DNA of 64,000 bases from a virus. Every line of letters begins with the position of its first letter. Position 1 is the stretch's first letter. A model generated the notes under the pieces. It had not been told where the DNA came from. It saw only the letters and a list, made by a program, of their open reading frames with translations, and searched no databases. This document shows, piece after piece, positions 31,602 through 42,510 of the stretch. Made by a program: the position numbers and the translations under genes. Location of the stretch: the IMG/VR virus record IMGVR_UViG_3300012663_000526, positions 1 to 64,000 of that record, one strand, 5' to 3'.

Positions 31602-31856
31602 ATGTCATCTGTAAAAAGACTAGTACCACTTCATGCAGTAGAGCTATCTTCAGATCCAGCAAATGGACGAATAGGCGATATTTATTATAATAGCGCAGTT
31701 AAAGAATTAAGATTTTATGATGGAGTTGCTTGGCAGCCTACTGGCGGAGCTCTAAGTGGTATTTTGGACCACGTACATACATATGACGGAGAAATTTACT
31801 CTGTAGAAAACGTTCAGATACCTAATCCAGGATTTATTGATGGCGGTGACGCATAA
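31602..31856 (+). CDS. Small fibre-associated protein
   Basis: GDIYYN...FYDG..W; IDGG. Confidence 0.65.
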   Translation: MSSVKRLVPLHAVELSSDPANGRIGDIYYNSAVKELRFYDGVAWQPTGGALSGILDHVHTYDGEIYSVENVQIPNPGFIDGGDA

Positions 31857-33058
31857 TGTCATCAGTTATTAGATTAAGAAGAGGAACATCTGCTCAATGG
31901 GCAGCTTCTACATTAGTTCTTGCACCAGCAGAACTAGGTTTAGATACTACACTAAATAAGTTAAAGGTTGGAAATGGATTATATACTTGGGTTAATCTTC
32001 CCTTTATAAATGTACTTCCCTCAGAGCTTGCGGAGTTGTCACAAGACGCTATAAATAGTGCTTTAGTTATGGGTCTACATATGACAAAAACATATGATGA
32101 CACTTTAAATACAATAACAGTTTCTTCTACTCTTACAAACGTAGACAATACATCGGATGCAGATAAGCCAATATCAACTGCTACATCAACAGCATTAGCA
32201 CTAAAAGCTCCTTTAGCCAATCCCGCTTTAACTGGAATTCCAACAGCACCAACTGCTGTGTCTACAACCAATACAACTCAAATTGCAACAACAGAATTCG
32301 TAAAGACTGCAATAGCAAATGTTATTGATTTAGCTCCAGGTGCCTTAGACACGTTAAATGAACTCGCCGCCGCAATCAATGATGACGCTTCATACGCATC
32401 TACAGTTACTACTGCATTAGGACTAAAAGCTCCTTTAGCCTCACCAACATTTAGCGGAAACGTATCTCTCCCAGCAACTACATCTATTGGAGATGTGTCT
32501 AGTACAGAAATATCTTATTTAAATAATGCAACCAGCGAAATACAGGCACAAATAGATCTCAAAGCCCCATTGCTAAATCCAACTTTTACTGGAACGGTAA
32601 GCGGAATTACAAAAACAATGGTTGGACTTGGAAATGTTGATAACACTTCAGATTTAGAGAAGCCAATATCTTCTTTAACAGCAACACGTATTGGCTTGTT
32701 AGAAACTCAAGTTGTAGACGGATTAGCTGCAAAGGTTGATAAGGCAACTATACCAACATTAAAGTCAGACACTGCTTACACAATTAGCAATCAAACAGAT
32801 AGATATAATAGAATTGAATTTGACGCTTCAACAGCAATTACAGTAACTATTCCAACAAATATAAATGATCCGTGGCCAATAGGCTCAAGCTGTGAAATTA
32901 TGCAGGCTGGAACTGGAAAAATAACTGTAGTTGGTCAATCTGGAGTAACACTAAGAGCCCCAGACAATCAATTTAAAACTAGAGTTCAATGGAGCACACT
33001 AATTCTTGAAAAAAGAGGCACAAACGATTGGCTAGTATCTGGAGATTCTGATCTATAA
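31856..33058 (+). CDS. Tail fibre with Mtd/hyaluronidase-like N-terminal anchor
   Basis: IRLRRGT..QW...L...ELG.DT...KLKVGNG; NVDNTSD..KP; KAPLASPTF; LDTLNELAAA. Confidence 0.8.
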   Translation: MSSVIRLRRGTSAQWAASTLVLAPAELGLDTTLNKLKVGNGLYTWVNLPFINVLPSELAELSQDAINSALVMGLHMTKTYDDTLNTITVSSTLTNVDNTSDADKPISTATSTALALKAPLANPALTGIPTAPTAVSTTNTTQIATTEFVKTAIANVIDLAPGALDTLNELAAAINDDASYASTVTTALGLKAPLASPTFSGNVSLPATTSIGDVSSTEISYLNNATSEIQAQIDLKAPLLNPTFTGTVSGITKTMVGLGNVDNTSDLEKPISSLTATRIGLLETQVVDGLAAKVDKATIPTLKSDTAYTISNQTDRYNRIEFDASTAITVTIPTNINDPWPIGSSCEIMQAGTGKITVVGQSGVTLRAPDNQFKTRVQWSTLILEKRGTNDWLVSGDSDL

Positions 33059-34458
33059 TGGGACTATCAAGAAAAAAAAGAAATATTGTATCCTCAAGAC
33101 TAAAGGCATTTGTATTTTTCCAAGATAGTTTTAATAATTATTTTAAGGGCGGATGGAAATTTAGAAGAGGTCAATGGACAGCTGGTTCTTCTACTGCATC
33201 AACAGCATATAGCTCATCTCTTTATCCAATGGCTTCAGTTCCAATGAAAGATCCAAATGTAACTATTTCTATTAAAAATCCAGGCATTGGATCAGGTGCC
33301 GCTCTTTGGGTAACAGATGAAGGTAACTGGTACGGATTAGTTTCTTCACAAGTAGCAAGTCCTGGAACAGGAGCATGTCTTTCTGTAAATCCTTATAATC
33401 CTTGTGGAGCAACAAATGGTTGCGAAGGCACTGGAGGAAATTGTTACGGAAGCGGCGGATGCTCAGGCACTGGAGGAAATTGTGTTGCAACTGGCGGAAA
33501 CTATGCTGGCACAAACTATGAGTGCCAAGCTTCAAACCCAAGCTGTAATGTTGAGTATGCAAATTGTGTTGCAACTGGTGGAAACTGTAATCAAGGTGGA
33601 TTTAACTGTAATACATTTGGCGGAAACTGCAGGGCTACAGGAGGAAACTGTAACACTGGTGGTGGAAACTGTAGAGCTGGAACTGGTGGAAACTGTTCTC
33701 AATATGGTTGGTGCGGAATCCCATTTGCAGCAAGCTACTGGTGCTGTAATAGATATAATCCTTACAATCCATGCCCAAGCACTAACCCATACAACCCTTG
33801 TGTTAACATAAACCCATATAACCCATGTGCAAGCTTAAACCCATATAACCCATGTGTAAACATTAACCCATATAACTATTGCATAAATATAAATCCATAC
33901 AATCCATGTGCATCCACAAACCCATACAATCCTTGTGTTAACGTAAACCCTTACAACCCATGTGCATCTACTGTTCCTAGAGATCAGTATAATCCAGTAA
34001 ATCCATGTGGCTCCACAAACCCATATAATCCATGTGGCTCCGTAAACCCTTACAATCCATGTGCTGGAGTCAACCCATACAACCCTTGTGGTGCAGGAGG
34101 AAACTGTGCTGGAACTGGTGGAACATGTAGCTCTTATGCAACTACCTATCCAAGATACTTACAGCTTATTAGGTTTACATCAAATGTTGCAACAGCTATA
34201 TATACTTTCACTTTAGATGCAGTAACAAGCTATGTTCAGATGAAGGGTCTAAAAATTCAAATATCAAATGCCACCAAAGGTGGAACTACAGCCACAATAA
34301 CAGCCAAAGCATACTCTGACACCGCAATGGTGACCCAAATTGGAAGTGATTTGATATATAACGCAACAGGTGTTAATATTGTAGCTAACTACGGAATAGT
34401 TGTTTCTCCAAGCAGCTATAACCAAGAAAGTTCACTTGGAGAAATTACAATATCGTGA
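33058..34458 (+). CDS. Cys-rich repeat protein (GGNC and NPYNPC repeats inserted in a beta-rich domain); putative adhesin
   Basis: 32 Cys, all between 33376 and 34128; Cys-free beta-rich flanks. Confidence 0.8.
   Translation: MGLSRKKRNIVSSRLKAFVFFQDSFNNYFKGGWKFRRGQWTAGSSTASTAYSSSLYPMASVPMKDPNVTISIKNPGIGSGAALWVTDEGNWYGLVSSQVASPGTGACLSVNPYNPCGATNGCEGTGGNCYGSGGCSGTGGNCVATGGNYAGTNYECQASNPSCNVEYANCVATGGNCNQGGFNCNTFGGNCRATGGNCNTGGGNCRAGTGGNCSQYGWCGIPFAASYWCCNRYNPYNPCPSTNPYNPCVNINPYNPCASLNPYNPCVNINPYNYCININPYNPCASTNPYNPCVNVNPYNPCASTVPRDQYNPVNPCGSTNPYNPCGSVNPYNPCAGVNPYNPCGAGGNCAGTGGTCSSYATTYPRYLQLIRFTSNVATAIYTFTLDAVTSYVQMKGLKIQISNATKGGTTATITAKAYSDTAMVTQIGSDLIYNATGVNIVANYGIVVSPSSYNQESSLGEITIS
33376..34128 (+). 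repeat. Coding tandem repeats: about 21-bp (xxxGGNC) then about 27-bp (xxxNPYNPC) units
   Basis: Direct reading; repeats are synonymously diverged. Confidence 0.9.
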
Positions 34459-34703: not shown

Positions 34704-35381
34704 TTGAGAATAATAAAGTTTATTCCGTTTGGCGGAAGGAAAAACCTTATGCCTCCATCTATATCAAAAATACCACAATGGTGGAAAGATGGAGAAACAT
34801 CTACATCTGCTGGAACTCCAGGACTTAAGTCGTGTGTTCCCTTTATGGAAATAATGAAGTCTGGATATACAATAAATTTACCATTTGATATATTTGTTTC
34901 TAGGAATGAAGATGGAACTACAAATTTAAGATGGAACGCTCCAAATGAAGCTGGTTGGCCAAACTTTATTGAAGAAAGACCACCAGATCTTGGGAAAACA
35001 ATTCCAAGACCAGCAGGACATCTTCCAAATGGATTTGTATGGACATCACAATGGTCATGGAAAACTCCAAAAGGATATAGTACGATAGTAACTCATCCAT
35101 TTAATAGATTTGATCTTCCATTTACTACAGTATCTGGCATAGTAGATTCAGATAAATTTCAGGGAAATGGAAATATTCCATTTTTCTTAAAAGAAGATTT
35201 TCAAGGCGTAATTCCAGAAGGAACTCCAGTAGCCCATATATTTCCATTCAAAAGAGATAAGTGGAAGTCTTGGGTAGATGATTCTGTGGTAGAGTCTATA
35301 TATAAGAATCAAATAGCTAATTTAAGAGAGCCTGATGGTTCGTATAAAAAGGCATTCTGGGTAAAAAAGGTGTATGAATGA
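34704..35381 (+). CDS. DUF6065-like conserved phage protein
   Basis: PQWWK, KSCVP, KTPKGYS..VTHPFNR, IVDSD, GTPVAHIFPFKR. Confidence 0.75.
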   Translation: MRIIKFIPFGGRKNLMPPSISKIPQWWKDGETSTSAGTPGLKSCVPFMEIMKSGYTINLPFDIFVSRNEDGTTNLRWNAPNEAGWPNFIEERPPDLGKTIPRPAGHLPNGFVWTSQWSWKTPKGYSTIVTHPFNRFDLPFTTVSGIVDSDKFQGNGNIPFFLKEDFQGVIPEGTPVAHIFPFKRDKWKSWVDDSVVESIYKNQIANLREPDGSYKKAFWVKKVYE

Positions 35382-35686
35382 TATTTAAAAAGAAAAACAG
35401 GATTGAAAAAATAAATCCAAAAACAGATAACTTTAAGGAACCAAAGACTTATCACGAAGAAAAAAAGATATACTCAATTGCACTAGTTCTAGATAATGAA
35501 GTTCAAGATATTCTTAGAACAGAAGAAAGACTCTGGGCAATGTTAATGAGTAATCCAGTAATAGTAGACATTACGGACAATGAGACAAGACCACAATTAA
35601 ACTGGGAATACAACGAGGAAACAGGAGAGTTCACAAATCCAAATGCAATTCAACCCAACAACGAAGAAGATCAAAGCTCTATCTGA
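35378..35686 (+). CDS. Small protein, paralog of 34469-34675
   Basis: ALVLDNEVQ...AMLMSNPVIVDIT...W.Y...F..P. Confidence 0.7.
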   Translation: MIFKKKNRIEKINPKTDNFKEPKTYHEEKKIYSIALVLDNEVQDILRTEERLWAMLMSNPVIVDITDNETRPQLNWEYNEETGEFTNPNAIQPNNEEDQSSI

Positions 35687-36323
35687 AGATATTAGAATAG
35701 ACTGGGAAAAACCTTCCCCAGCTTCAAAAGAAATACCTAAATGGTTTAAAAAAATTGAAGCGGTAAATGATGAAAATCATGATATGACAATAAAGAAGTG
35801 CATCCCTTTCTTGGACACACTTACAACTGGATATATGTTTAAAACATCTGCAGATGTAATATATGACGAAGAGTATCATAGATTCTTAGACAATGGTGTA
35901 TCTGAAACCGTTACACTTCATCCTACATTTCAAATAGAAAATATGGAGATAGATAGCAATCTACACCCACTTCCGTATAAATGGATTAACAAGTTTATGT
36001 GGCAGACTCCTAAAGGATACAGCACCATGTTCTTGCACCCATTAAACAGAACAGACCTTCCATTCCAATCTATATCTGGTATCGTAGATACAGATGACTT
36101 TCCTTTGTCAGTACAGTTCCCGTTTTTTATGAAAAAGGGATTCTCTGGTTTAATACCAGCAGGAACTCCAATTATTCAAGCCATACCTTTTAAAAGAGAT
36201 GACTGGGATCTTAAGTTTCCAGATCAACAAGAATCTTACGAATACGAAGGTTTTTGGAATTGGTTCCAGCCTCCTATGGCAAAGTACAAAAGGCAATTCT
36301 GGAAGAGAAAGCGCTATCAGTGA
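35643..36323 (+). CDS. DUF6065-like conserved phage protein
   Basis: PKWFK, KKCIP, TPKGYS..LHPLNR, IVDTD, GTPIIQAIPFKR. Confidence 0.75.
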   Translation: MQFNPTTKKIKALSEDIRIDWEKPSPASKEIPKWFKKIEAVNDENHDMTIKKCIPFLDTLTTGYMFKTSADVIYDEEYHRFLDNGVSETVTLHPTFQIENMEIDSNLHPLPYKWINKFMWQTPKGYSTMFLHPLNRTDLPFQSISGIVDTDDFPLSVQFPFFMKKGFSGLIPAGTPIIQAIPFKRDDWDLKFPDQQESYEYEGFWNWFQPPMAKYKRQFWKRKRYQ

Positions 36324-37159
36324 AAGACAAGAAAACTCCATGGGATATTTTTAAGTCTAAGGGTCAAGAAAAGGTATCCTTAGAGGATGAAGTAAAAAAA
36401 GACTACATAAATGATGACGACTTCTTGGTGCCAGAAAAAACTCTAGCATTTTACGCTACAAGAGATACTAGACATAATTTGTCAGATGTGATGGAAAGTT
36501 TAATTGGTCACCCGAATAGGGATTGGTTTGCAGTCACAGCATTTTCTTTTTGTCTTCCATTAACAATAGCAAATCAATATGGATTTGTAGTAAAGTCAAA
36601 TTGGGATATGGAAATAACTTGGGATGGTAAAGCAGAGTCTTCGCCTCAGATAAAATCAGATGGTTGGCAAAACCATGATTCAATTCAGCCTATTATAGGA
36701 GATTTTGCAAATGGAATAATTAGCCTAGAAAATGCGTTTATAGTAAGAACCCCAAGAGATACGAATCTAATGATCATGCAGCCTCCAAATTACTTTATAC
36801 CAGGACTTCACACAATGAGTGCCGTAGTTGAAGCGGATAACCTTAGAAGAAATTTTACCTTCAACATAAAGGTTACTGAGCCAAATAAGGTTATAAATAT
36901 TAAAAAGGGTGACTGGCTTGCGGCATTTATTCCAATACCAAGATTTTACGTAGATAGCTTTGAGATGAAAGACGCATTTAAGCTCTTTGGCGATGAAGTA
37001 ATAAAAAACGAGCTAGAGTCCATGCATAAGCTTGGTTGGGAAAGGAATAATCAAGACTATGATAAAATTAATGGTTCAGGAAGAAGATATTTTAAGGGCA
37101 AGCATGTAAATGATACTCCTTATAGAAATCATCAGAAAAGGGCGGGGTTAAATGGATAA
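36320..37159 (+). CDS. DUF6065 family protein
   Basis: RDW, FCLPLTIANQYGF, PPNY, VVEAD, FTFN.K, FIPIPR, RRYFKG; GTGA overlap. Confidence 0.75.
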   Translation: MKDKKTPWDIFKSKGQEKVSLEDEVKKDYINDDDFLVPEKTLAFYATRDTRHNLSDVMESLIGHPNRDWFAVTAFSFCLPLTIANQYGFVVKSNWDMEITWDGKAESSPQIKSDGWQNHDSIQPIIGDFANGIISLENAFIVRTPRDTNLMIMQPPNYFIPGLHTMSAVVEADNLRRNFTFNIKVTEPNKVINIKKGDWLAAFIPIPRFYVDSFEMKDAFKLFGDEVIKNELESMHKLGWERNNQDYDKINGSGRRYFKGKHVNDTPYRNHQKRAGLNG

Positions 37160-37421
37160 TAGCGATATTCCTAAGTGGAAGAATGTCCCAGCTAGACCAT
37201 GGGATTTGTTTAATAAAAAAATAGGAAGAGTTCCTTCTGAGGTTGCGGCTGAAAGATTTGAAATTTGCAAGGCTTGCCCTAGATATGTAAAATCTACACA
37301 TCAATGCTTAGAGTGTGGATGTATTATGAATTTAAAAGTTAAGCTGCCTAATGCCGAATGTCCTTTGGGTCATTGGGGCCAAGTAGACTTAGAAGAGAGT
37401 ACAGACTTAGATAAGGAATAA
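37152..37421 (+). CDS. Six-Cys small protein (DUF6171-like)
   Basis: R..ICKACP....QCLECGC...K......CP..HW. Confidence 0.75.
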   Translation: MDNSDIPKWKNVPARPWDLFNKKIGRVPSEVAAERFEICKACPRYVKSTHQCLECGCIMNLKVKLPNAECPLGHWGQVDLEESTDLDKE

Positions 37422-37454: not shown

Positions 37455-40415
37455 ATGGCTACGTCATTCCCAACCTCAAAAGATACTCTGATTAATCCAC
37501 AACCTCTGGATTCACCAGAATTAGTATCACATGCCGCCCAGCATGCTAACGCAAATGACGCAATTGAAGCCCTTGAGACAAAGGTTGGAGTTAATAACTC
37601 TGCTGATGCCACATCCCATGACTATAAAATAAGAACCCTAGAATCTTATGCAATTAGCTATGAAACAGCTCAGGATGCCGCAGGAGCCCTTTTAGGACAC
37701 ACTAACCATACAAACCTTATAGCGACCTATGACGATGTTTTAAATGAAGTTAGACTTTCAGTAGCCGCTCCAGATGTTGCTAGAACAATTTATCAAACTG
37801 CCAAAAATGAAACAGGATCTACACTGGCAAAAGGAAAGCCAGTATATGTAACTGGAGCAGTAGGTGCATCAGGAAAAATTAAAGTTGGGCTAGCCTCAAA
37901 TGTATCAGAAGCACAATCAAGCAAGACATTTGGATTTACAGCAGAGTCTATTTCTAATAATAGCGAAGGCCAAATAATTACAGAAGGACTTCTTTCTAAT
38001 ATTAATACAGTTGACGGAGCTGACGGAGATCCTGTATGGCTTGGATCAAATGGTAGTTTAATATTTGGTCTTGTCAATAAGCCAAAAGCACCACAGCATC
38101 TTGTATTCCTTGGAATTGTTGTAAGAGGCGGACATGCCAATAACGGATCAATATTTGTTAAGATACAAAATGGATTTGAGCTTGAAGAATTACACAATGT
38201 TTTAATTAAGTCTCCAGCAAATAGTCAAGCTCTTGTATATGATTCAGCTTCAGGTTTATGGAAGAATATAAGCATAAATGCTGGAACTGGAATAACAAAA
38301 ACATACACTTCGGTTCCCCCCAATTATCGTGGAGACTATGACAACGGTGCATACTATGCAATAAATGATGTTGTCAGCATCCCAGTTGGAAGTCCATACG
38401 GAATAGTAGGTTCATATTTTATAAGGTCTGGAAATCCAGGAAACCCAGGATATCCTCCAGAGCCAGGCGGAGCAACAAATGCTTCTTGGACTTTATTTGA
38501 TTTTTCTTCAAGTATAACTATTGGAGTAGATACTTCAGTAATAGCAACTCAATCTTATGTAACTACAGCAATATCTAATTTGCTAGATGGAGCACCAGCC
38601 GCTCTAGATACTTTAAATGAATTAGCAGCAGCAATAAATGACGATGCTTCTTATGCAGCAACAATAACAACTGCACTAGGAACAAAATTAAACTCAACAA
38701 CTGCAGCCACTACTTATCTTGCCCTTGCAGACACAGACGAAAGAATACAAGATGTAGTTGGGGGAATGGTTTCTTCAAATACTGAAGGCGGAATTGAAGT
38801 AACATACGATGACCCAACAGGAAAGCTTAATTTTAGTGTCACCCCAGCGCTTATAACAGAGTTTGTAGAATCAGCACAAGATGCATCAGCCTCATTATTA
38901 AATCACTCAGATCATAATAAAATAACAGCTACATATAATGACGAAACAAATAAAGTAATATTAAATGTAGATGAGCCAATTAAGGTTAGTGTTTCAGCGC
39001 CAGCAAACCCATTAAATGGAGATAGCTGGTTTGATCATCAGACTGGAGTGCTTTATGTTTACGATGGCTCATACTGGATTGAAGTATCAGGCGGAACTGG
39101 CTTTACAGCTAGCGGTATAAATGACTTGCCAGATAGTATTGCATATTTAGATGGAGTCACAAGTAACGTTCAAACACAATTAAATGCAAAAGCTCCACTG
39201 GCTTCTCCAGCTTTAACTGGTACGCCAACTTCTACAACTGCTTCTGTAGATACAAATACTACACAGATAGCGACTACAGCATATGTAATGGGTCAAGGAT
39301 ATGCTAAGTTAGCAGGTCCAACATTTACTGGAACGGTTACGTTGCCATCTACAACTTCTATAGGAACAATAACATCAGCGGAGCTTGGATATGTTGACGG
39401 AGTAACCTCATCAATTCAAACACAAATAAACACTAAGTCTCCTTCTGTTTCTCCAACTTTTACAGGAAACGTAGTTCTTCCGTCTACAACATCAATTGGA
39501 AATGTTTCAGATATAGAGATTGGGTATTTAGATGGAGTAACATCTTCTATCCAAACTCAAATAAATACAAAATTAGCAACTGCATCTTTTAGCTATGTAA
39601 ATATGGTAAAGGCTACTTATGCAAATGTTGGCTCACTTCCTGCCGCTGCTTCAAATACTGGAAAAGTTATGTATGTAACTGCTGACGGATATATGTACTA
39701 TTCAACAGGAGCAACTTGGGTAAAGATTGCAAAATTTAACGATACAACAGCTTTAACATATAATATTAATGCGCTTACAGATGTTGATACTGGAACCGTT
39801 GCCCCATTAGTAAATCAAGTATTAGCATGGAATGGGTCTCAGTGGGTTCCAGCAAATCAGAATTCAGCAACCCCATCAATAACATTAGATGACATTACAA
39901 ATGTTGATTTTTCTGTTCCTCCTGAAACTGATGATGTTCTTACATATAATGGTTCAGAATGGGTTGCGGCTGCTGGAGGAAATTCAGTTGTAGAAATACC
40001 AGCCTTTGCAGATTTAACAGATATATTCCAAACAGCAGACATGATTGCTTATCCAGCAATAACAAGGCTAACTGTTACTGCTGCAGGATCATCTGGATAT
40101 GTCTTTGGAGATCAATATAATAATACAGTAAATCCAACAGTTTATGCTATATCAGGAACAACAATTGCATTTAATTTAAATGTGCCAGGTCATCCATTCT
40201 TAATTCAAACATCTGGCGGAGCTAACTCTAACGCAGGACTTGTGCATGTATCTACAGATGGAACTGAAAGTGTTGGGGGAAATGCACAGGGTAAAACAGA
40301 AGGAACTCTTTACTGGCGCATACCATTCAATACTACTGGCAACTATAAATATCAATGCTCAATTCACGTTGGGATGAATGGAGTTATTACGATTAAGGAT
40401 ATTGCTACAATATGA
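37455..40415 (+). CDS. Long mosaic fibre protein with C-terminal cupredoxin-like domain
   Basis: HA.QHAN.NDAIEALE anchor; YLDGVTS repeats; C-terminal GHPF...YQCSIHVGM.G. Confidence 0.8.
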   Translation: MATSFPTSKDTLINPQPLDSPELVSHAAQHANANDAIEALETKVGVNNSADATSHDYKIRTLESYAISYETAQDAAGALLGHTNHTNLIATYDDVLNEVRLSVAAPDVARTIYQTAKNETGSTLAKGKPVYVTGAVGASGKIKVGLASNVSEAQSSKTFGFTAESISNNSEGQIITEGLLSNINTVDGADGDPVWLGSNGSLIFGLVNKPKAPQHLVFLGIVVRGGHANNGSIFVKIQNGFELEELHNVLIKSPANSQALVYDSASGLWKNISINAGTGITKTYTSVPPNYRGDYDNGAYYAINDVVSIPVGSPYGIVGSYFIRSGNPGNPGYPPEPGGATNASWTLFDFSSSITIGVDTSVIATQSYVTTAISNLLDGAPAALDTLNELAAAINDDASYAATITTALGTKLNSTTAATTYLALADTDERIQDVVGGMVSSNTEGGIEVTYDDPTGKLNFSVTPALITEFVESAQDASASLLNHSDHNKITATYNDETNKVILNVDEPIKVSVSAPANPLNGDSWFDHQTGVLYVYDGSYWIEVSGGTGFTASGINDLPDSIAYLDGVTSNVQTQLNAKAPLASPALTGTPTSTTASVDTNTTQIATTAYVMGQGYAKLAGPTFTGTVTLPSTTSIGTITSAELGYVDGVTSSIQTQINTKSPSVSPTFTGNVVLPSTTSIGNVSDIEIGYLDGVTSSIQTQINTKLATASFSYVNMVKATYANVGSLPAAASNTGKVMYVTADGYMYYSTGATWVKIAKFNDTTALTYNINALTDVDTGTVAPLVNQVLAWNGSQWVPANQNSATPSITLDDITNVDFSVPPETDDVLTYNGSEWVAAAGGNSVVEIPAFADLTDIFQTADMIAYPAITRLTVTAAGSSGYVFGDQYNNTVNPTVYAISGTTIAFNLNVPGHPFLIQTSGGANSNAGLVHVSTDGTESVGGNAQGKTEGTLYWRIPFNTTGNYKYQCSIHVGMNGVITIKDIATI

Positions 40416-41889: not shown

Positions 41890-42510
41890 ATGTCATTAAA
41901 ACGTTGGAACGGCTCAGCTTGGGTTGTAGTAGCAGGATCACGTCCAGGACCACAAGGTCCTCAAGGACTTCCAGGTGCCGCAGCAACAGTTTCTATTGGA
42001 ACTGTAACAACATTGCCTTCAGGATCTACACCAACTGTTGTAAATAGCGGAACATCAGCAGCAGCAGTTTTAAACTTTAGTCTTCCCTCTGGAACACAGG
42101 GCCCAGCAGGTGCCCCAGGTACCCCAGGAGCCCAGGGAACGGCAGGACAAAGAGGTTCTTACAACTATACTGGAATAGCAAATCCAACAGCCTTAAATCC
42201 AGCAAACAAGTTGGGTCTAGATAATTATTTAAATACTACAACAGGCGACTGGTTTCAATACAATTCAACAACTTCTCAATGGACATTGCAAGGAAATATT
42301 CGTGGCCCACAAGGTCAACAGGGTATTAAGGGTGATACTGGAGCGGTAGGACCTTCTGGTAATGAACTGGCAAATGCTATACTAGAGGAGACTACAGTTG
42401 CTAGAGTAGACGCAATGCTTAATCTTGGCTTGTATTATCCAAAATATACAAGTACACTAACTCAAACACAGCTTAACAGTAGATTTGCAGCATCAAGTTA
42501 TTTATTTTAG
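41890..42510 (+). CDS. Collagen-like fibre protein
   Basis: Three G-X-Y tracts (GPQGPQGLPG etc.). Confidence 0.8.
   Translation: MSLKRWNGSAWVVVAGSRPGPQGPQGLPGAAATVSIGTVTTLPSGSTPTVVNSGTSAAAVLNFSLPSGTQGPAGAPGTPGAQGTAGQRGSYNYTGIANPTALNPANKLGLDNYLNTTTGDWFQYNSTTSQWTLQGNIRGPQGQQGIKGDTGAVGPSGNELANAILEETTVARVDAMLNLGLYYPKYTSTLTQTQLNSRFAASSYLF

What the first reader, a model, noticed from the sequence alone, without database searches (positions are those of the whole stretch)
33058..34458. Mirror-symmetric 32-cysteine 'disulfide ladder' hairpin in a fibre-cluster protein
Seen: the insert has exactly 32 Cys, 16 on each side of a hydrophobic apex (GWC-GIPFAASYW-CC). Folded back on itself (C16-C17, C15-C18, ... 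C1-C32), every irregularity is mirrored. The one missing Cys in the outgoing arm (GGNY; 14-residue gap between C6 and C7) faces the one missing Cys in the returning arm (VPRDQY; 15-residue gap between C26 and C27). Short 6-8-residue, mostly Gly-rich units face 9-residue NPYNP units. At the base the pattern swaps: the outgoing NPYNP unit (C1-C2) faces the returning GTGGT unit (C31-C32), and two 6-residue units (C2-C3, C30-C31) face each other. Inference: a roughly 250-residue antiparallel stalk with 16 Cys-Cys (or metal-bridged) rungs, projecting an aromatic tip from a Cys-free beta domain. This would be an extensible antenna/adhesin whose length can change only by paired repeat gain or loss.
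Basis: partly seen in the sequence, partly recalled or inferred. Interest (0 to 1): 0.85.

Follow-up and report, generated by a model that had tools for sequence, protein, structure and literature searches.

The report
Cysteine-laddered hairpin on phage lectin protein
A tail-fibre-cluster protein of an uncultured freshwater phage is a sugar-binding-type domain carrying a 250-residue loop that runs out and back; its two arms match cysteine for cysteine in about 200 relatives, which points to a disulfide-runged stalk of adjustable length that I could not find described.

Summary

The out-and-back pairing is strongly supported by comparison. The evidence:
- About 200 distinct homologs carry very different repeats (unit lengths 4/5, 6/8, 7/9, 9/11, 10/12, 8/8), yet their Cys spacings stay mirror-symmetric.
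- Irregular units move together in both arms.
- NPYNP units always face GGN units.
- 187 of 196 inserts have an even number of Cys.
- Residues flanking the same predicted rung co-vary at only one register.

AlphaFold models the two Cys-free ends confidently as a single ConA-like lectin/CBM sandwich, like actinophage receptor-binding domains. The repeats themselves are modelled poorly. No coordinates were available, so S-S distances were not measured.

Disulfide chemistry, the shape of the stalk and an adhesin role remain inferences. Nine inserts depart from the rule: five by arm counts or odd parity (P0010, P0016, P0026, P0030, P0062), and six of the later cluster representatives by odd parity alone.

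The 9-residue tip loop comes in two conserved forms that have been exchanged at least four times.

This scan has already found the same family on other DNA (e1-6027164, e1-5355019, e1-6016029, e1-6005532, e1-5996739). I found no publication describing it.

The parts
33058..34458 (+). Whole gene, 466 aa: a lectin-like domain split by a 251-residue Cys-ladder insert
   Evidence: ORF. 74 + 141 homologs and 68 viral loci. The start codon overlaps the stop of the upstream fibre gene (TAATG).
33058..33375 (+). N-terminal half of the ConA-like beta-sandwich (aa 1-106, no Cys)
   Evidence: AF2 pLDDT 91-97 over aa 20-110. VIA-align: CBM66 4b1m Z 15.6, rmsd 2.7, 149 aligned; 8zdo Z 14.2; 9n6a Z 13.2.
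33376..33714 (+). Outgoing arm, C1-C16 (aa 107-219): one NPYNP unit, then 6-8-residue x-x-G-G-N-C units
   Evidence: 21-nt tandem array.
33484..33525 (+). Irregular 14-residue outgoing unit that lacks one Cys (aa 143-156)
   Evidence: AF2 predicts a strand at 149-157 with pLDDT about 64, amid repeats below 50.
33712..33747 (+). Apex: C16, a 9-residue aromatic loop (GIPFAASYW), then the vicinal C17-C18 (aa 219-230)
   Evidence: One of two conserved alternative tip forms in the family, with at least 4 switches on the core-domain tree. AF2 predicts strands 213-218 and 228-233.
33742..34128 (+). Returning arm, C17-C32 (aa 229-357): 9-residue x-x-x-N-P-Y-N-P-C units, then two Gly-rich units at the base
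   Evidence: 27-nt and 81-nt tandem arrays.
33964..34008 (+). Irregular 15-residue returning unit that lacks one Cys (aa 303-317), facing 33484-33525
   Evidence: AF2 predicts a strand at 304-311 with pLDDT about 67. In relatives, such irregular units shift together in both arms.
34129..34455 (+). C-terminal half of the ConA-like beta-sandwich (aa 358-466, no Cys); the most conserved part of the family
   Evidence: AF2 pLDDT 87-97. Invariant residues T415, D421, G429, G446, I447 and S452.
31856..33058 (+). Upstream fibre protein (400 aa; Mtd_N plus tail-fibre PHROGs); always precedes the lectin/ladder gene
   Evidence: Synteny across the viral loci.
34704..36323 (+). Conserved downstream neighbours: two phrog_7084 proteins (225 and 226 aa, dUTPase fold), each preceded by a small protein
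   Evidence: PHROG hits. AF2 pLDDT 83; dUTPases Z 9.4-8.1 and Foldseek E 1.9e-5. Homologs of both phrog_7084 genes were found downstream in most loci long enough to show them, including the Cys-free clade.
36254..37421 (+). DUF6065 protein (301 aa) and a DUF6171-like protein with six Cys (89 aa)
   Evidence: Pfam hits. The six Cys are invariant. A copy lies next to most Cys-bearing family members and next to none of the Cys-free clade, which amounts to a single phylogenetic event.

Best explanation
The protein is an accessory receptor-binding (adhesin-type) component of the tail-fibre module of an uncultured freshwater phage, probably one that infects actinobacteria.

Its two Cys-free ends fold together into one ConA-like lectin/CBM beta-sandwich. 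The 251 residues between them leave and re-enter that domain as a single long antiparallel hairpin.

Each outgoing 'x-x-G-G-N-C' unit lies against one returning 'x-x-x-N-P-Y-N-P-C' unit, and the two Cys at their ends form a rung: C1-C32, C2-C31, and so on to C16-C17. The most likely chemistry is 16 disulfides, formed once the protein meets oxidising conditions.

The ladder holds a 9-residue aromatic loop, closed by C16-C17 and backed by a vicinal CC, at the far end of a thin cross-linked stalk. That loop is the likely contact point with the host surface.

Evolution tunes the stalk length by adding or removing one unit in each arm, and swaps the tip between two conserved forms.

Shown: the matched two-arm architecture, the lectin-like base, the conserved gene neighbourhood and the exchangeable tip.
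Inferred: disulfide chemistry, an extended rod shape (anywhere from about 8 to 35 nm), presence in the virion, and the tip as the binding site.
For: 1. The family keeps the mirror rule while everything else changes.
- Gap strings of Q and 74 homologs and of 68 IMG/VR loci are near-palindromic, with unit pairs of 7/9, 10/12, 9/11, 6/8, 8/8, 10/10, 4/5 and (CxC-x6)/(CxxC-x4).
- Unit numbers match between arms: P0015 7/7, P0028 4/4, P0017 3/3, P0021 2/2, P0038 5/5, P0041 4/4, P0042 3/3, P0018 5/5, L007 19+19 Cys, P0204 46 Cys.

2. Close relatives show paired changes. Q has 5 proximal and 9 distal rungs in both arms, P0002 has 5+8 in both, and P0004 has 6+8 in both, with the 14/15 irregular pair shifted together. 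In P0009 versus P0011 the 10,10/12,12 pair moves together. L007 has two mirrored irregular pairs (12/14 and 10/12).

3. Parity. 103 of 106 distinct inserts have an even Cys count, as do 84 of 90 further cluster representatives. Many have an odd number of Cys in each arm (15/15, 19/19, 13/13), so pairing confined to one arm cannot account for all Cys. Steps of a single rung argue against four-Cys metal sites.

4. Heterotypic rule. NPYNP units always face GGN units, including where the arms swap type at the base (Q 1/1, L007 3/3, P0011 2/2 with hybrid 10/10 units at the switch point). In P0060 the whole arms are swapped.

5. Residue-level register. 'Asn after outgoing Cys i' goes with an 'x-N-x-N' unit after the partner Cys at only one offset, the one where both residues flank the same rung. 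Concordance there is 99 of 122, against 0.43-0.62 at eight other offsets, and 0 of 5000 shuffles reach it. In Q the pattern 1011010 is identical in both arms.

6. AF2. The base sandwich has pLDDT above 90. In the insert, the only strands with pLDDT around 60-90 are the mirrored segments 107-125/342-360, 149-157/304-311 and 213-218/228-233.

7. Base fold. CBM66 Z 15.6, mycobacteriophage Douge baseplate protein Z 14.2, and TM4 gp23 receptor-binding domain Z 13.2.

8. Context. Fibre genes lie on both sides, the gene is translationally coupled to the upstream fibre gene, and the synteny holds across the viral loci.

9. Tip. Two conserved loop forms have switched at least 4 times on the core tree.

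10. Precedent. Disulfides occur in virions of freshwater phages: Pam3 fibres are disulfide-linked to the baseplate (PMC9942802). This sequence occurs in freshwater and lake metagenomes from 9 studies.
Against: - AF2 gives pLDDT below 50 for most repeats, and no coordinates were available. No S-S distance was measured.
- Nothing tests disulfide chemistry directly. Phage proteins fold in a reducing cytoplasm, and no known thiol oxidase is encoded nearby.
- Five variants break the balance: P0010 (17/13), P0016 (27 Cys), P0026 (25 Cys), P0030 (31 Cys) and P0062 (4 versus 2 units).
- Some subfamilies carry extra CC or CxC clusters in one arm, so not every Cys can be a simple rung.
- A Cys-free clade has repeat inserts at the same site, so Cys are not needed for an insert to exist there.
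- The protein has no recognisable virion-anchoring domain, and its presence in the virion is only inferred from context.
- The homologs are related to each other, so the counts overstate the number of independent events.
Confidence: 0.5

Rival explanations
1. The same disulfide-laddered hairpin, but with the opposite polarity of use. The conserved tip loop plugs into a virion partner (the fibre, or the dUTPase-fold trimer encoded next door). The lectin domain is then the distal, sugar-binding head held on a long stalk.
For: The protein has no other anchoring domain. The tip loop is far more conserved than the arms and comes in only two forms, as a docking peg would. ConA-like domains are the receptor-binding heads of actinophage proteins such as TM4 gp23. 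The dUTPase-fold neighbours are conserved in synteny.
Against: The lectin domain, including its N-terminal 20 residues, is the most conserved part of the family. That pattern is more typical of the virion-attached end. The tip forms switch between near-identical core domains, as expected for a host-range element. No partner was tested.
Confidence: 0.2
2. The arms pair unit for unit and are disulfide-linked, but they do not form a long rod. Each 7- or 9-residue unit is a short polyglycine-II/polyproline-II strand, and the two arms form a compact two-layer sheet about 8 nm long. This would resemble the glycine-rich lattices of the phage adhesins S16 gp38 and Pam3 gp24, or snow-flea antifreeze protein.
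For: The insert is 19.5% Asn, 15.5% Gly and 11.6% Pro. Glycine-rich PGII lattices are known in phage fibre tips (PMC9942802; gp38 papers listed). This layout would satisfy the mirror rule, the parity and the rung-flank covariation equally well.
Against: Units of 7 residues leave only about 4 residues per strand once the turn is taken out. Relatives with 4- and 5-residue units (L059: YQTC x4 facing NPYNC x4; P0064 and P0204 with 5-residue units) cannot form a strand plus a turn. AF2 predicts beta pairing for the irregular units and the apex.
Confidence: 0.15
3. The arms pair as a hairpin, but the Cys are not disulfide-bonded in the working protein. They either bind metal between the arms or stay reduced, and the arms are held together by Tyr-Gly packing and Asn hydrogen bonds.
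For: The protein is made in a reducing cytoplasm. A Cys-free clade and P0071 (two 92-residue Cys-free arms of equal length) show that arms can exist without Cys. A small six-Cys DUF6171-like protein and a neighbouring fibre with a cupredoxin-like motif (first-reader notes) hint at metal or redox chemistry nearby.
Against: The insert contains no His and almost no Asp or Glu. Rungs change one at a time, and many variants have an odd number of rungs, which does not fit four-Cys sites. Spacings of Cx6C and Cx8C are not typical metal knuckles. Near-universal even parity is what obligatory pairing predicts. The phage lives in oxic lake water.
Confidence: 0.12
4. There is no long-range pairing. The two arrays are independent low-complexity repeats with local disulfides between neighbouring Cys, and the mirror symmetry is coincidence.
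For: AF2 does not model the repeats confidently. Unrelated proteins with single Cys-periodic arrays exist (P0129, P0176, P0209).
Against: Matched arm counts and co-moving irregular units recur across many subfamilies. Arm counts are often odd/odd. The NPYNP-faces-GGN rule holds, including matched swaps at the base. The covariation is specific to one register.
Confidence: 0.03

Closest known systems
ConA-like lectin/CBM receptor-binding domains of actinophage tail proteins (TM4 gp23 C-terminal domain, PDB 9n6a; mycobacteriophage Douge baseplate protein, 8zdo; CBM66, 4b1m)
   Same: The two Cys-free halves model as the same beta-sandwich fold (Z 13-15.6 over 149-167 aligned residues). The gene also sits in a tail-fibre module.
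   Different: There is no sequence-family hit in Pfam, PHROGs or PDB. None of those domains carries a 250-residue Cys-repeat hairpin inserted in a loop. Sugar binding was not tested.
Cystine-ladder beta-hairpins: theta-defensins (cyclic, 18 aa, 3 parallel disulfides), protegrins and tachyplesins (own knowledge; 'disulfide ladder' is used for theta-defensins in PMC13408038)
   Same: Two antiparallel strands cross-braced by a series of parallel Cys-Cys rungs.
   Different: Those peptides have 2-3 rungs spaced 2-4 residues apart in free peptides of about 18 aa. Here there are 16 rungs (0-23 across the family) spaced 6-12 residues apart. The arms are built from two different repeat types, the hairpin is embedded in a folded domain, and its length varies.
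Stalk-and-knob of bovine ultralong CDR H3 (PMC5994613, PMC8602281)
   Same: A long two-stranded projection from a loop of a beta-sandwich domain presents a small disulfide-closed binding element far from the body. Both length and tip are diversified.
   Different: CDR H3 reaches at most about 70 aa. Its stalk has no disulfide rungs and its Cys sit in the knob. The two are not related by sequence, and the diversification mechanism differs (somatic there, germline repeat changes and recombination here).
gp38-type tail-fibre tip adhesins (S16/T2 gp38) and the glycine-rich domain of cyanophage Pam3 gp24 (PMC9942802; PMC3157838)
   Same: A small protein encoded just after a fibre gene, with Gly-rich repeat motifs interspersed with variable segments and presumed to determine host range. 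Pam3 shows functional disulfides in a freshwater phage tail.
   Different: gp38 and gp24 form polyglycine-II lattices without Cys rungs and have no lectin-like base. No sequence similarity was detected. The mirror-paired heterotypic repeats are not a gp38 feature.

Membership tests
ConA-like lectin/glucanase fold (CBM-type phage receptor-binding domain) | Two-sheet jelly-roll beta-sandwich of about 200 residues | tested here: met
   AF2 pLDDT above 90 for aa 20-120 and 351-466. VIA-align: 4b1m Z 15.6 (rmsd 2.7, 149 aligned), 8zdo Z 14.2, 9n6a Z 13.2, plus many legume lectins and GH43 CBMs at Z 10-13. Foldseek alone was weak (best E 0.05).
ConA-like lectin/glucanase fold (CBM-type phage receptor-binding domain) | Membership of a curated sequence family (Pfam, PHROG, or PDB homolog) | tested here: not met
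   No Pfam or PHROG family at E<=0.01. No PDB sequence match with the family profile at E<=0.1.
ConA-like lectin/glucanase fold (CBM-type phage receptor-binding domain) | Carbohydrate or metal binding site | not testable with these tools
   No coordinates or ligand modelling were available. The invariant residues (W84, W91, D421 and others) were not mapped to a site.
Cystine-ladder beta-hairpin (theta-defensin / protegrin type) | Antiparallel two-strand hairpin with Cys facing Cys in register | tested here: met
   Mirror-symmetric Cys spacing, matched arm counts, co-moving irregular units and register-specific covariation. This is comparative evidence, not structural.
Cystine-ladder beta-hairpin (theta-defensin / protegrin type) | Rungs are disulfide bonds | not testable with these tools
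   Only indirect evidence: an even Cys count in 187 of 196 inserts and odd/odd arms. Mass spectrometry is needed.
Cystine-ladder beta-hairpin (theta-defensin / protegrin type) | Short peptide (about 18 aa), cyclic backbone in theta-defensins | tested here: not met
   The insert is 251 residues long and sits inside a 466-aa protein.
gp38 / Pam3 gp24 glycine-rich (PGII) adhesin domain | Glycine-rich motifs forming a polyglycine-II lattice; sequence relationship to gp38 | tested here: inconclusive
   There are no family hits. The repeats are modelled at pLDDT below 50, so PGII versus beta conformation cannot be told apart. Relatives with 4-5-residue units argue against a lattice.
Metal-binding Cys-repeat protein (metallothionein / zinc-knuckle type) | Cys in clusters of 3-4 (CxxC / CxC) with counts in multiples set by the site | tested here: not met
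   In this protein Cys are spaced 6-9 residues apart, singly. Rung numbers change by one and are often odd. The insert has no His. Some distant relatives do carry CxC/CxxC nodes (L046).

The most novel reading that the evidence does not exclude
A natural protein rod of programmable length. It would be a single-chain hairpin made of two different repeat types (GGN-Cys and NPYNP-Cys) that recognise each other unit for unit, with one disulfide locking each pair. The family would span 0 to at least 23 rungs, displaying an exchangeable 9-residue binding loop up to tens of nanometres from a phage lectin domain. That would be a protein architecture and pairing code with no described counterpart, and a ready-made scaffold for display or molecular rulers.
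Probability: 0.45. Interest if true: 0.8.

Novelty: new variant of a known kind. Interest (0 to 1): 0.7.

Why it matters
If the ladder is real, it shows a way to build a long, thin, protease- and shear-resistant projection from one polypeptide: two complementary repeat types zipped by one disulfide per repeat pair. Length would be set simply by repeat number, and specificity by a small swappable tip.

For phage biology, it would define a widespread but unannotated class of receptor-binding accessory proteins in abundant freshwater phages. At least 235 clusters at 50% identity matched at E<=0.001, though a few of those are unrelated repeat-only hits; homologs lie on 68 viral contigs. It would also give a readable sequence marker of host-range evolution (rung number and tip type).

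For protein science, the family is a natural covariation data set for a heterotypic strand-pairing rule. It also raises the question of how 16 or more ordered disulfides form in a protein made in a reducing cytoplasm.

Tried and rejected
- **Arm-arm complex prediction.** Complex prediction on the two arms as separate chains (aa 100-224 versus 225-366, with alignments) gave no verdict (score 0.02). This is not evidence either way.
- **S-S distances.** They could not be measured because structure prediction returns no coordinates.
- **First symmetry test.** My first test (mirror alignment with a tolerance of 3) was too permissive and partly circular, because the split point was chosen to maximise symmetry. 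I do not rely on its z-scores.
- **DNA-level palindrome.** Rejected as the source of the symmetry.
- **tblastn against 50,697 deposited phage genomes.** No match.
- **ESM Atlas.** Only unnamed clusters.
- **Read laying on four freshwater runs.** Contigs fragment inside the gene. Two contigs span both arms with unchanged repeat numbers (X1 record 3; X3 record 18, 94% identity, no gaps). The listed 'joints' are not multiples of 21 or 27 nt and cannot be interpreted, so they say nothing about paired indels in populations.
- **DUF6171-like CxxC protein as a dedicated thiol oxidase.** Not supported. Its association with Cys-bearing members rests on one phylogenetic event. In 16-17 distant loci the domain is fused to, or follows, a PF11397 GlcNAc transferase. 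This phage has no such transferase.
- **Repeat-only hits.** Large proteins that hit only the repeats (P0084, P0129, P0176, P0209) are unrelated low-complexity proteins.
- **Literature searches.** 'cysteine ladder' + phage, 'disulfide ladder', DUF6065, and freshwater actinophage + cysteine found no description of this protein.
Full report
**Observation**

Window 33058-34458 (+) is one ORF of 466 aa. A script finds exactly 32 Cys, all between residues 107 and 357. The Cys-to-Cys gaps are 9 6 7 6 7 14 7 7 7 7 7 7 7 8 6 | 10 | 1 9 9 9 9 9 9 9 9 15 9 9 9 6 7.

- There are 16 + 16 Cys around the loop C-GIPFAASYW-CC.
- The only long outgoing unit (14 residues, C6-C7) is mirrored by the only long returning unit (15 residues, C26-C27).
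- GGN-type units of 6-8 residues face 9-residue NPYNP units.
- The unit types swap at the base, and the two 6-residue units face each other.

The insert is 19.5% Asn, 15.5% Gly, 12.7% Cys, 11.6% Pro and 8.4% Tyr, with no His. The symmetry is not a DNA palindrome. The arms are separate, diverged 21-nt and 27-nt tandem arrays.

**The genome**

The window lies in a 107,950-bp IMG/VR virus record with direct terminal repeats. It encodes a portal, a protease and a major capsid protein. The capsid protein is about 58% identical to those of large Streptomyces phages. GC content is about 39%.

The stretch occurs in freshwater and lake metagenomes from nine studies. The likely source is therefore an uncultured freshwater phage, probably of low-GC actinobacteria. 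The host assignment is an inference.

**The flanks are one lectin-like domain**

AlphaFold2, run with a 72-sequence alignment, gives pLDDT above 90 for aa 20-120 and 351-466 and below 50 for most repeats.

The confident part is a ConA-like beta-sandwich:
- CBM66 4b1m: Z 15.6, rmsd 2.7, 149 residues aligned.
- Mycobacteriophage Douge baseplate protein 8zdo: Z 14.2.
- TM4 gp23 receptor-binding domain 9n6a: Z 13.2.
- Many lectins and CBMs follow.

Foldseek alone was weak. No Pfam, PHROG or PDB sequence family matches.

Within the insert, the only segments predicted as strands with pLDDT around 60-90 are the mirrored pairs:
- 107-125 with 342-360 (the base).
- 149-157 with 304-311 (the two irregular units).
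- 213-218 with 228-233 (the apex).

This agrees with the hairpin. However, no coordinates were returned, so no S-S distances could be measured.

The homolog sets were:
- 74 proteins from a word-indexed search.
- 68 IMG/VR loci.
- A full HMMER scan giving 235 clusters at 50% identity.

The repeats are hypervariable in length and sequence, yet the Cys spacing stays mirror-symmetric. Examples:

| Member | Pattern |
|---|---|
| P0015 | 7 x 10-mers facing 7 x 12-mers |
| P0028, P0017, P0021 | 4/4, 3/3, 2/2 |
| P0038, P0041, P0042 | 5/5, 4/4, 3/3 units of 9/11 |
| P0036 | 5/5 units of 6/8 |
| P0064, P0066 | 8/8 and 10/10 palindromes |
| L059 | YQTC x4 facing NPYNC x4 |
| L046 | (CxC-x6) x5 facing (CxxC-x4) x5 |
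| P0071 | two Cys-free arms of 92 residues each |
| P0204 | 46 Cys |

Among close relatives of the query the changes are paired:
- Q has 5 proximal + 9 distal rungs, P0002 has 5+8 and P0004 has 6+8, always in both arms. The 14/15 irregular pair moves together.
- In P0009 versus P0011 the 10,10/12,12 pair moves together.
- L007 has 19+19 Cys with two mirrored irregular pairs.

I then defined the apex by its sequence motif (C-x9-CC) rather than by symmetry. Of 44 such members, 25 have equal arms. Most of the rest differ by two, through extra CC, CxC or CxxCxxC clusters.

The total Cys count is even in 103 of 106 distinct inserts and in 84 of 90 further representatives. Many members have an odd number of Cys in each arm (15/15, 19/19, 13/13). 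Pairing confined to one arm cannot explain those.

**Two further regularities**

First, NPYNP units always face GGN units. Where the arm types swap near the base, the number of swapped units matches: Q 1/1, L007 3/3, P0011 2/2 with hybrid NP..GGN 10-mers on both sides at the switch. In P0060 the whole arms are exchanged.

Second, residues co-vary across the arms at one register only. In 16 distinct patterns of the 7/9 subfamily, an Asn right after outgoing Cys i goes with an x-N-x-N unit right after the partner Cys. Concordance is 99 of 122 at that offset, which is the one where both residues flank the same rung. It is 0.43-0.62 at eight other offsets, and 0 of 5000 within-protein shuffles reach it. 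In the query the non-periodic pattern 1011010 is identical in both arms.

Two caveats apply. The sequences are related, and the shuffles destroy a base-to-tip composition gradient. The comparison between offsets is therefore the fairer control.

**Exceptions**

- P0010 has 17/13 Cys. Its core domain is almost identical to that of the balanced P0012, but its arm sequences differ.
- P0016 has 27 Cys and P0026 has 25. Each is off by one unit.
- P0030 has one extra Cys in the first unit.
- P0062 has 4 units versus 2 and is N-terminally truncated.
- Six of the 90 further cluster representatives also have an odd Cys count; I did not inspect their arms individually.

All of the named five come from short-read assemblies. 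None of the complete genes in the 68 IMG/VR loci departs clearly from the mirror pattern by eye; arm balance was not computed separately for this set, and several carry extra CC, CxC or CxxCxxC clusters. Public contigs fragment heavily inside this gene, so chimeric assembly is plausible. Alternatively, the variants that are off by one could be true evolutionary intermediates.

**The tip**

The apex loop occurs in two conserved forms: C-GIPxxxxY[WK]-CC and C-L[VI]YGSYY[IV][SA]-CC. Both are found across subfamilies whose arms are entirely different. On a tree of the Cys-free core domain the tip form switches at least four times, sometimes between near-identical cores. The tip is therefore an exchangeable, functionally constrained module, and the arms behave as a spacer.

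**A Cys-free clade**

Fourteen loci form a single clade (SH-aLRT 100) that has no Cys. At the same site they carry Tyr/Thr/Ser/Asn-rich short repeats, again arranged as two similar halves. The two-arm insert is therefore older than, or independent of, the Cys. The Cys staple it rather than create it.

**Neighbourhood**

The order fibre gene, lectin/ladder gene, two phrog_7084 genes recurs across the viral loci, including most of those long enough to show all of it and the Cys-free clade. The ladder gene's start codon overlaps the stop codon of the fibre gene.

The phrog_7084 protein models well (pLDDT 83). It has a dUTPase fold: Z 9.4-8.1 for the top eight hits, all dUTPases, and Foldseek E 1.9e-5. 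Its role is unknown.

The DUF6171-like protein has six invariant Cys. It lies next to most Cys-bearing members and next to none of the Cys-free ones, but that is a single phylogenetic event. In 16-17 distant loci the domain is fused to, or follows, a PF11397 polypeptide GlcNAc-transferase, alongside sugar-nucleotide enzymes. This phage has no such transferase. A dedicated 'ladder oxidase' is therefore not supported.

**Mechanism**

Shown: a matched two-arm hairpin, a lectin-like base, an exchangeable tip, and a place in a fibre module.

Inferred: one disulfide per unit pair, for these reasons:
- The Cys count is almost always even.
- Many arms have odd counts.
- Rung number changes in steps of one.
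- The insert has no His, Asp or Glu that could serve as metal ligands.
- The habitat is oxic.
- Pam3 virions give a precedent for disulfides in a freshwater phage tail (PMC9942802).

The shape is open. A fully extended ribbon of 112 and 128 residues could reach about 35 nm. A zig-zag PGII/PPII two-layer sheet would be about 8 nm. Relatives with 4-5-residue units favour the ribbon.

The direction of use is also open: tip outward as an antenna, or tip plugged into the virion with the lectin domain as the head. I favour tip-outward because the lectin domain is the conserved part and the tip switches between near-identical cores.

**Comparison with known systems, and novelty**

- The base belongs by fold, but not by sequence family, with the ConA-like receptor-binding domains of actinophages.
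- The ladder works like the cystine ladder of theta-defensins or protegrins, but with 16 rungs instead of 2-3. It is built from two complementary repeat types and embedded in a domain.
- As a display device it resembles the bovine ultralong CDR H3 stalk-and-knob (PMC5994613).
- In gene position and Gly-rich repeats it recalls gp38 and Pam3 gp24.

I found no publication describing it. This scan has already met the same family on other DNA, with concordant follow-up readings. The find is therefore not new to the scan, but it appears to be new to the literature.

Noticed in passing
window 34704-35381 and 35643-36323 (also 36254-37159): Two paralogous phrog_7084 proteins and a DUF6065 protein follow the ladder gene. 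The 225-aa one models with a dUTPase fold (Z 9.4, Foldseek E 1.9e-5). The dUTPase catalytic motifs were not checked. Homologs of the two phrog_7084 genes recur downstream of the lectin gene across the related viral loci, including the Cys-free ones. Their function is unknown; a trimeric structural adaptor is possible.
   Followed up: partly
window 37152-37421; L028:10742-12184; L024:5762-7067: The small DUF6171-like protein (phrog_13558) has six invariant Cys (C-x2-C...C-x2-C-G-C...C-P). In 16-17 distant relatives it is fused to, or directly follows, a PF11397 (Skp1-type) polypeptide GlcNAc-transferase, next to a GT2, a methyltransferase and a Polysacc_synt_2 dehydratase. This suggests that virion proteins are glycosylated in those phages. 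The window's own genome lacks these transferases.
   Followed up: partly
L037, L039, L047, L049-L058, L063, L064 (IMG/VR loci); P0074: One clade of the family has no Cys at all. At the same site it carries Tyr/Thr/Ser/Asn-rich 6-7-residue repeats (for example PYTSN, TTYTxG, GSNYG) in two similar halves, in proteins of up to 524 aa.
   Followed up: partly
window 41890-42510: A 206-aa protein with collagen triple-helix repeats (Pfam PF01391, E 4.4e-7) lies in the same structural cluster, followed by a 1187-aa virion structural protein (phrog_5838).
   Followed up: no
window 37455-40415: A 986-aa fibre protein whose C-terminal 180 residues hit phrog_677 (baseplate wedge tail fibre connector). Other first-reader notes propose a cupredoxin-like copper site there (HPF...C-x2-H-x2-M). 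I did not test this.
   Followed up: no
window 33058-34458 in public runs X1, X2, X3, X8: Logan contigs of four freshwater metagenomes break into 9-21 pieces within this one gene and show many strain variants (82-99% identity). The gene is a hotspot of microdiversity and hard to assemble from short reads.
   Followed up: partly
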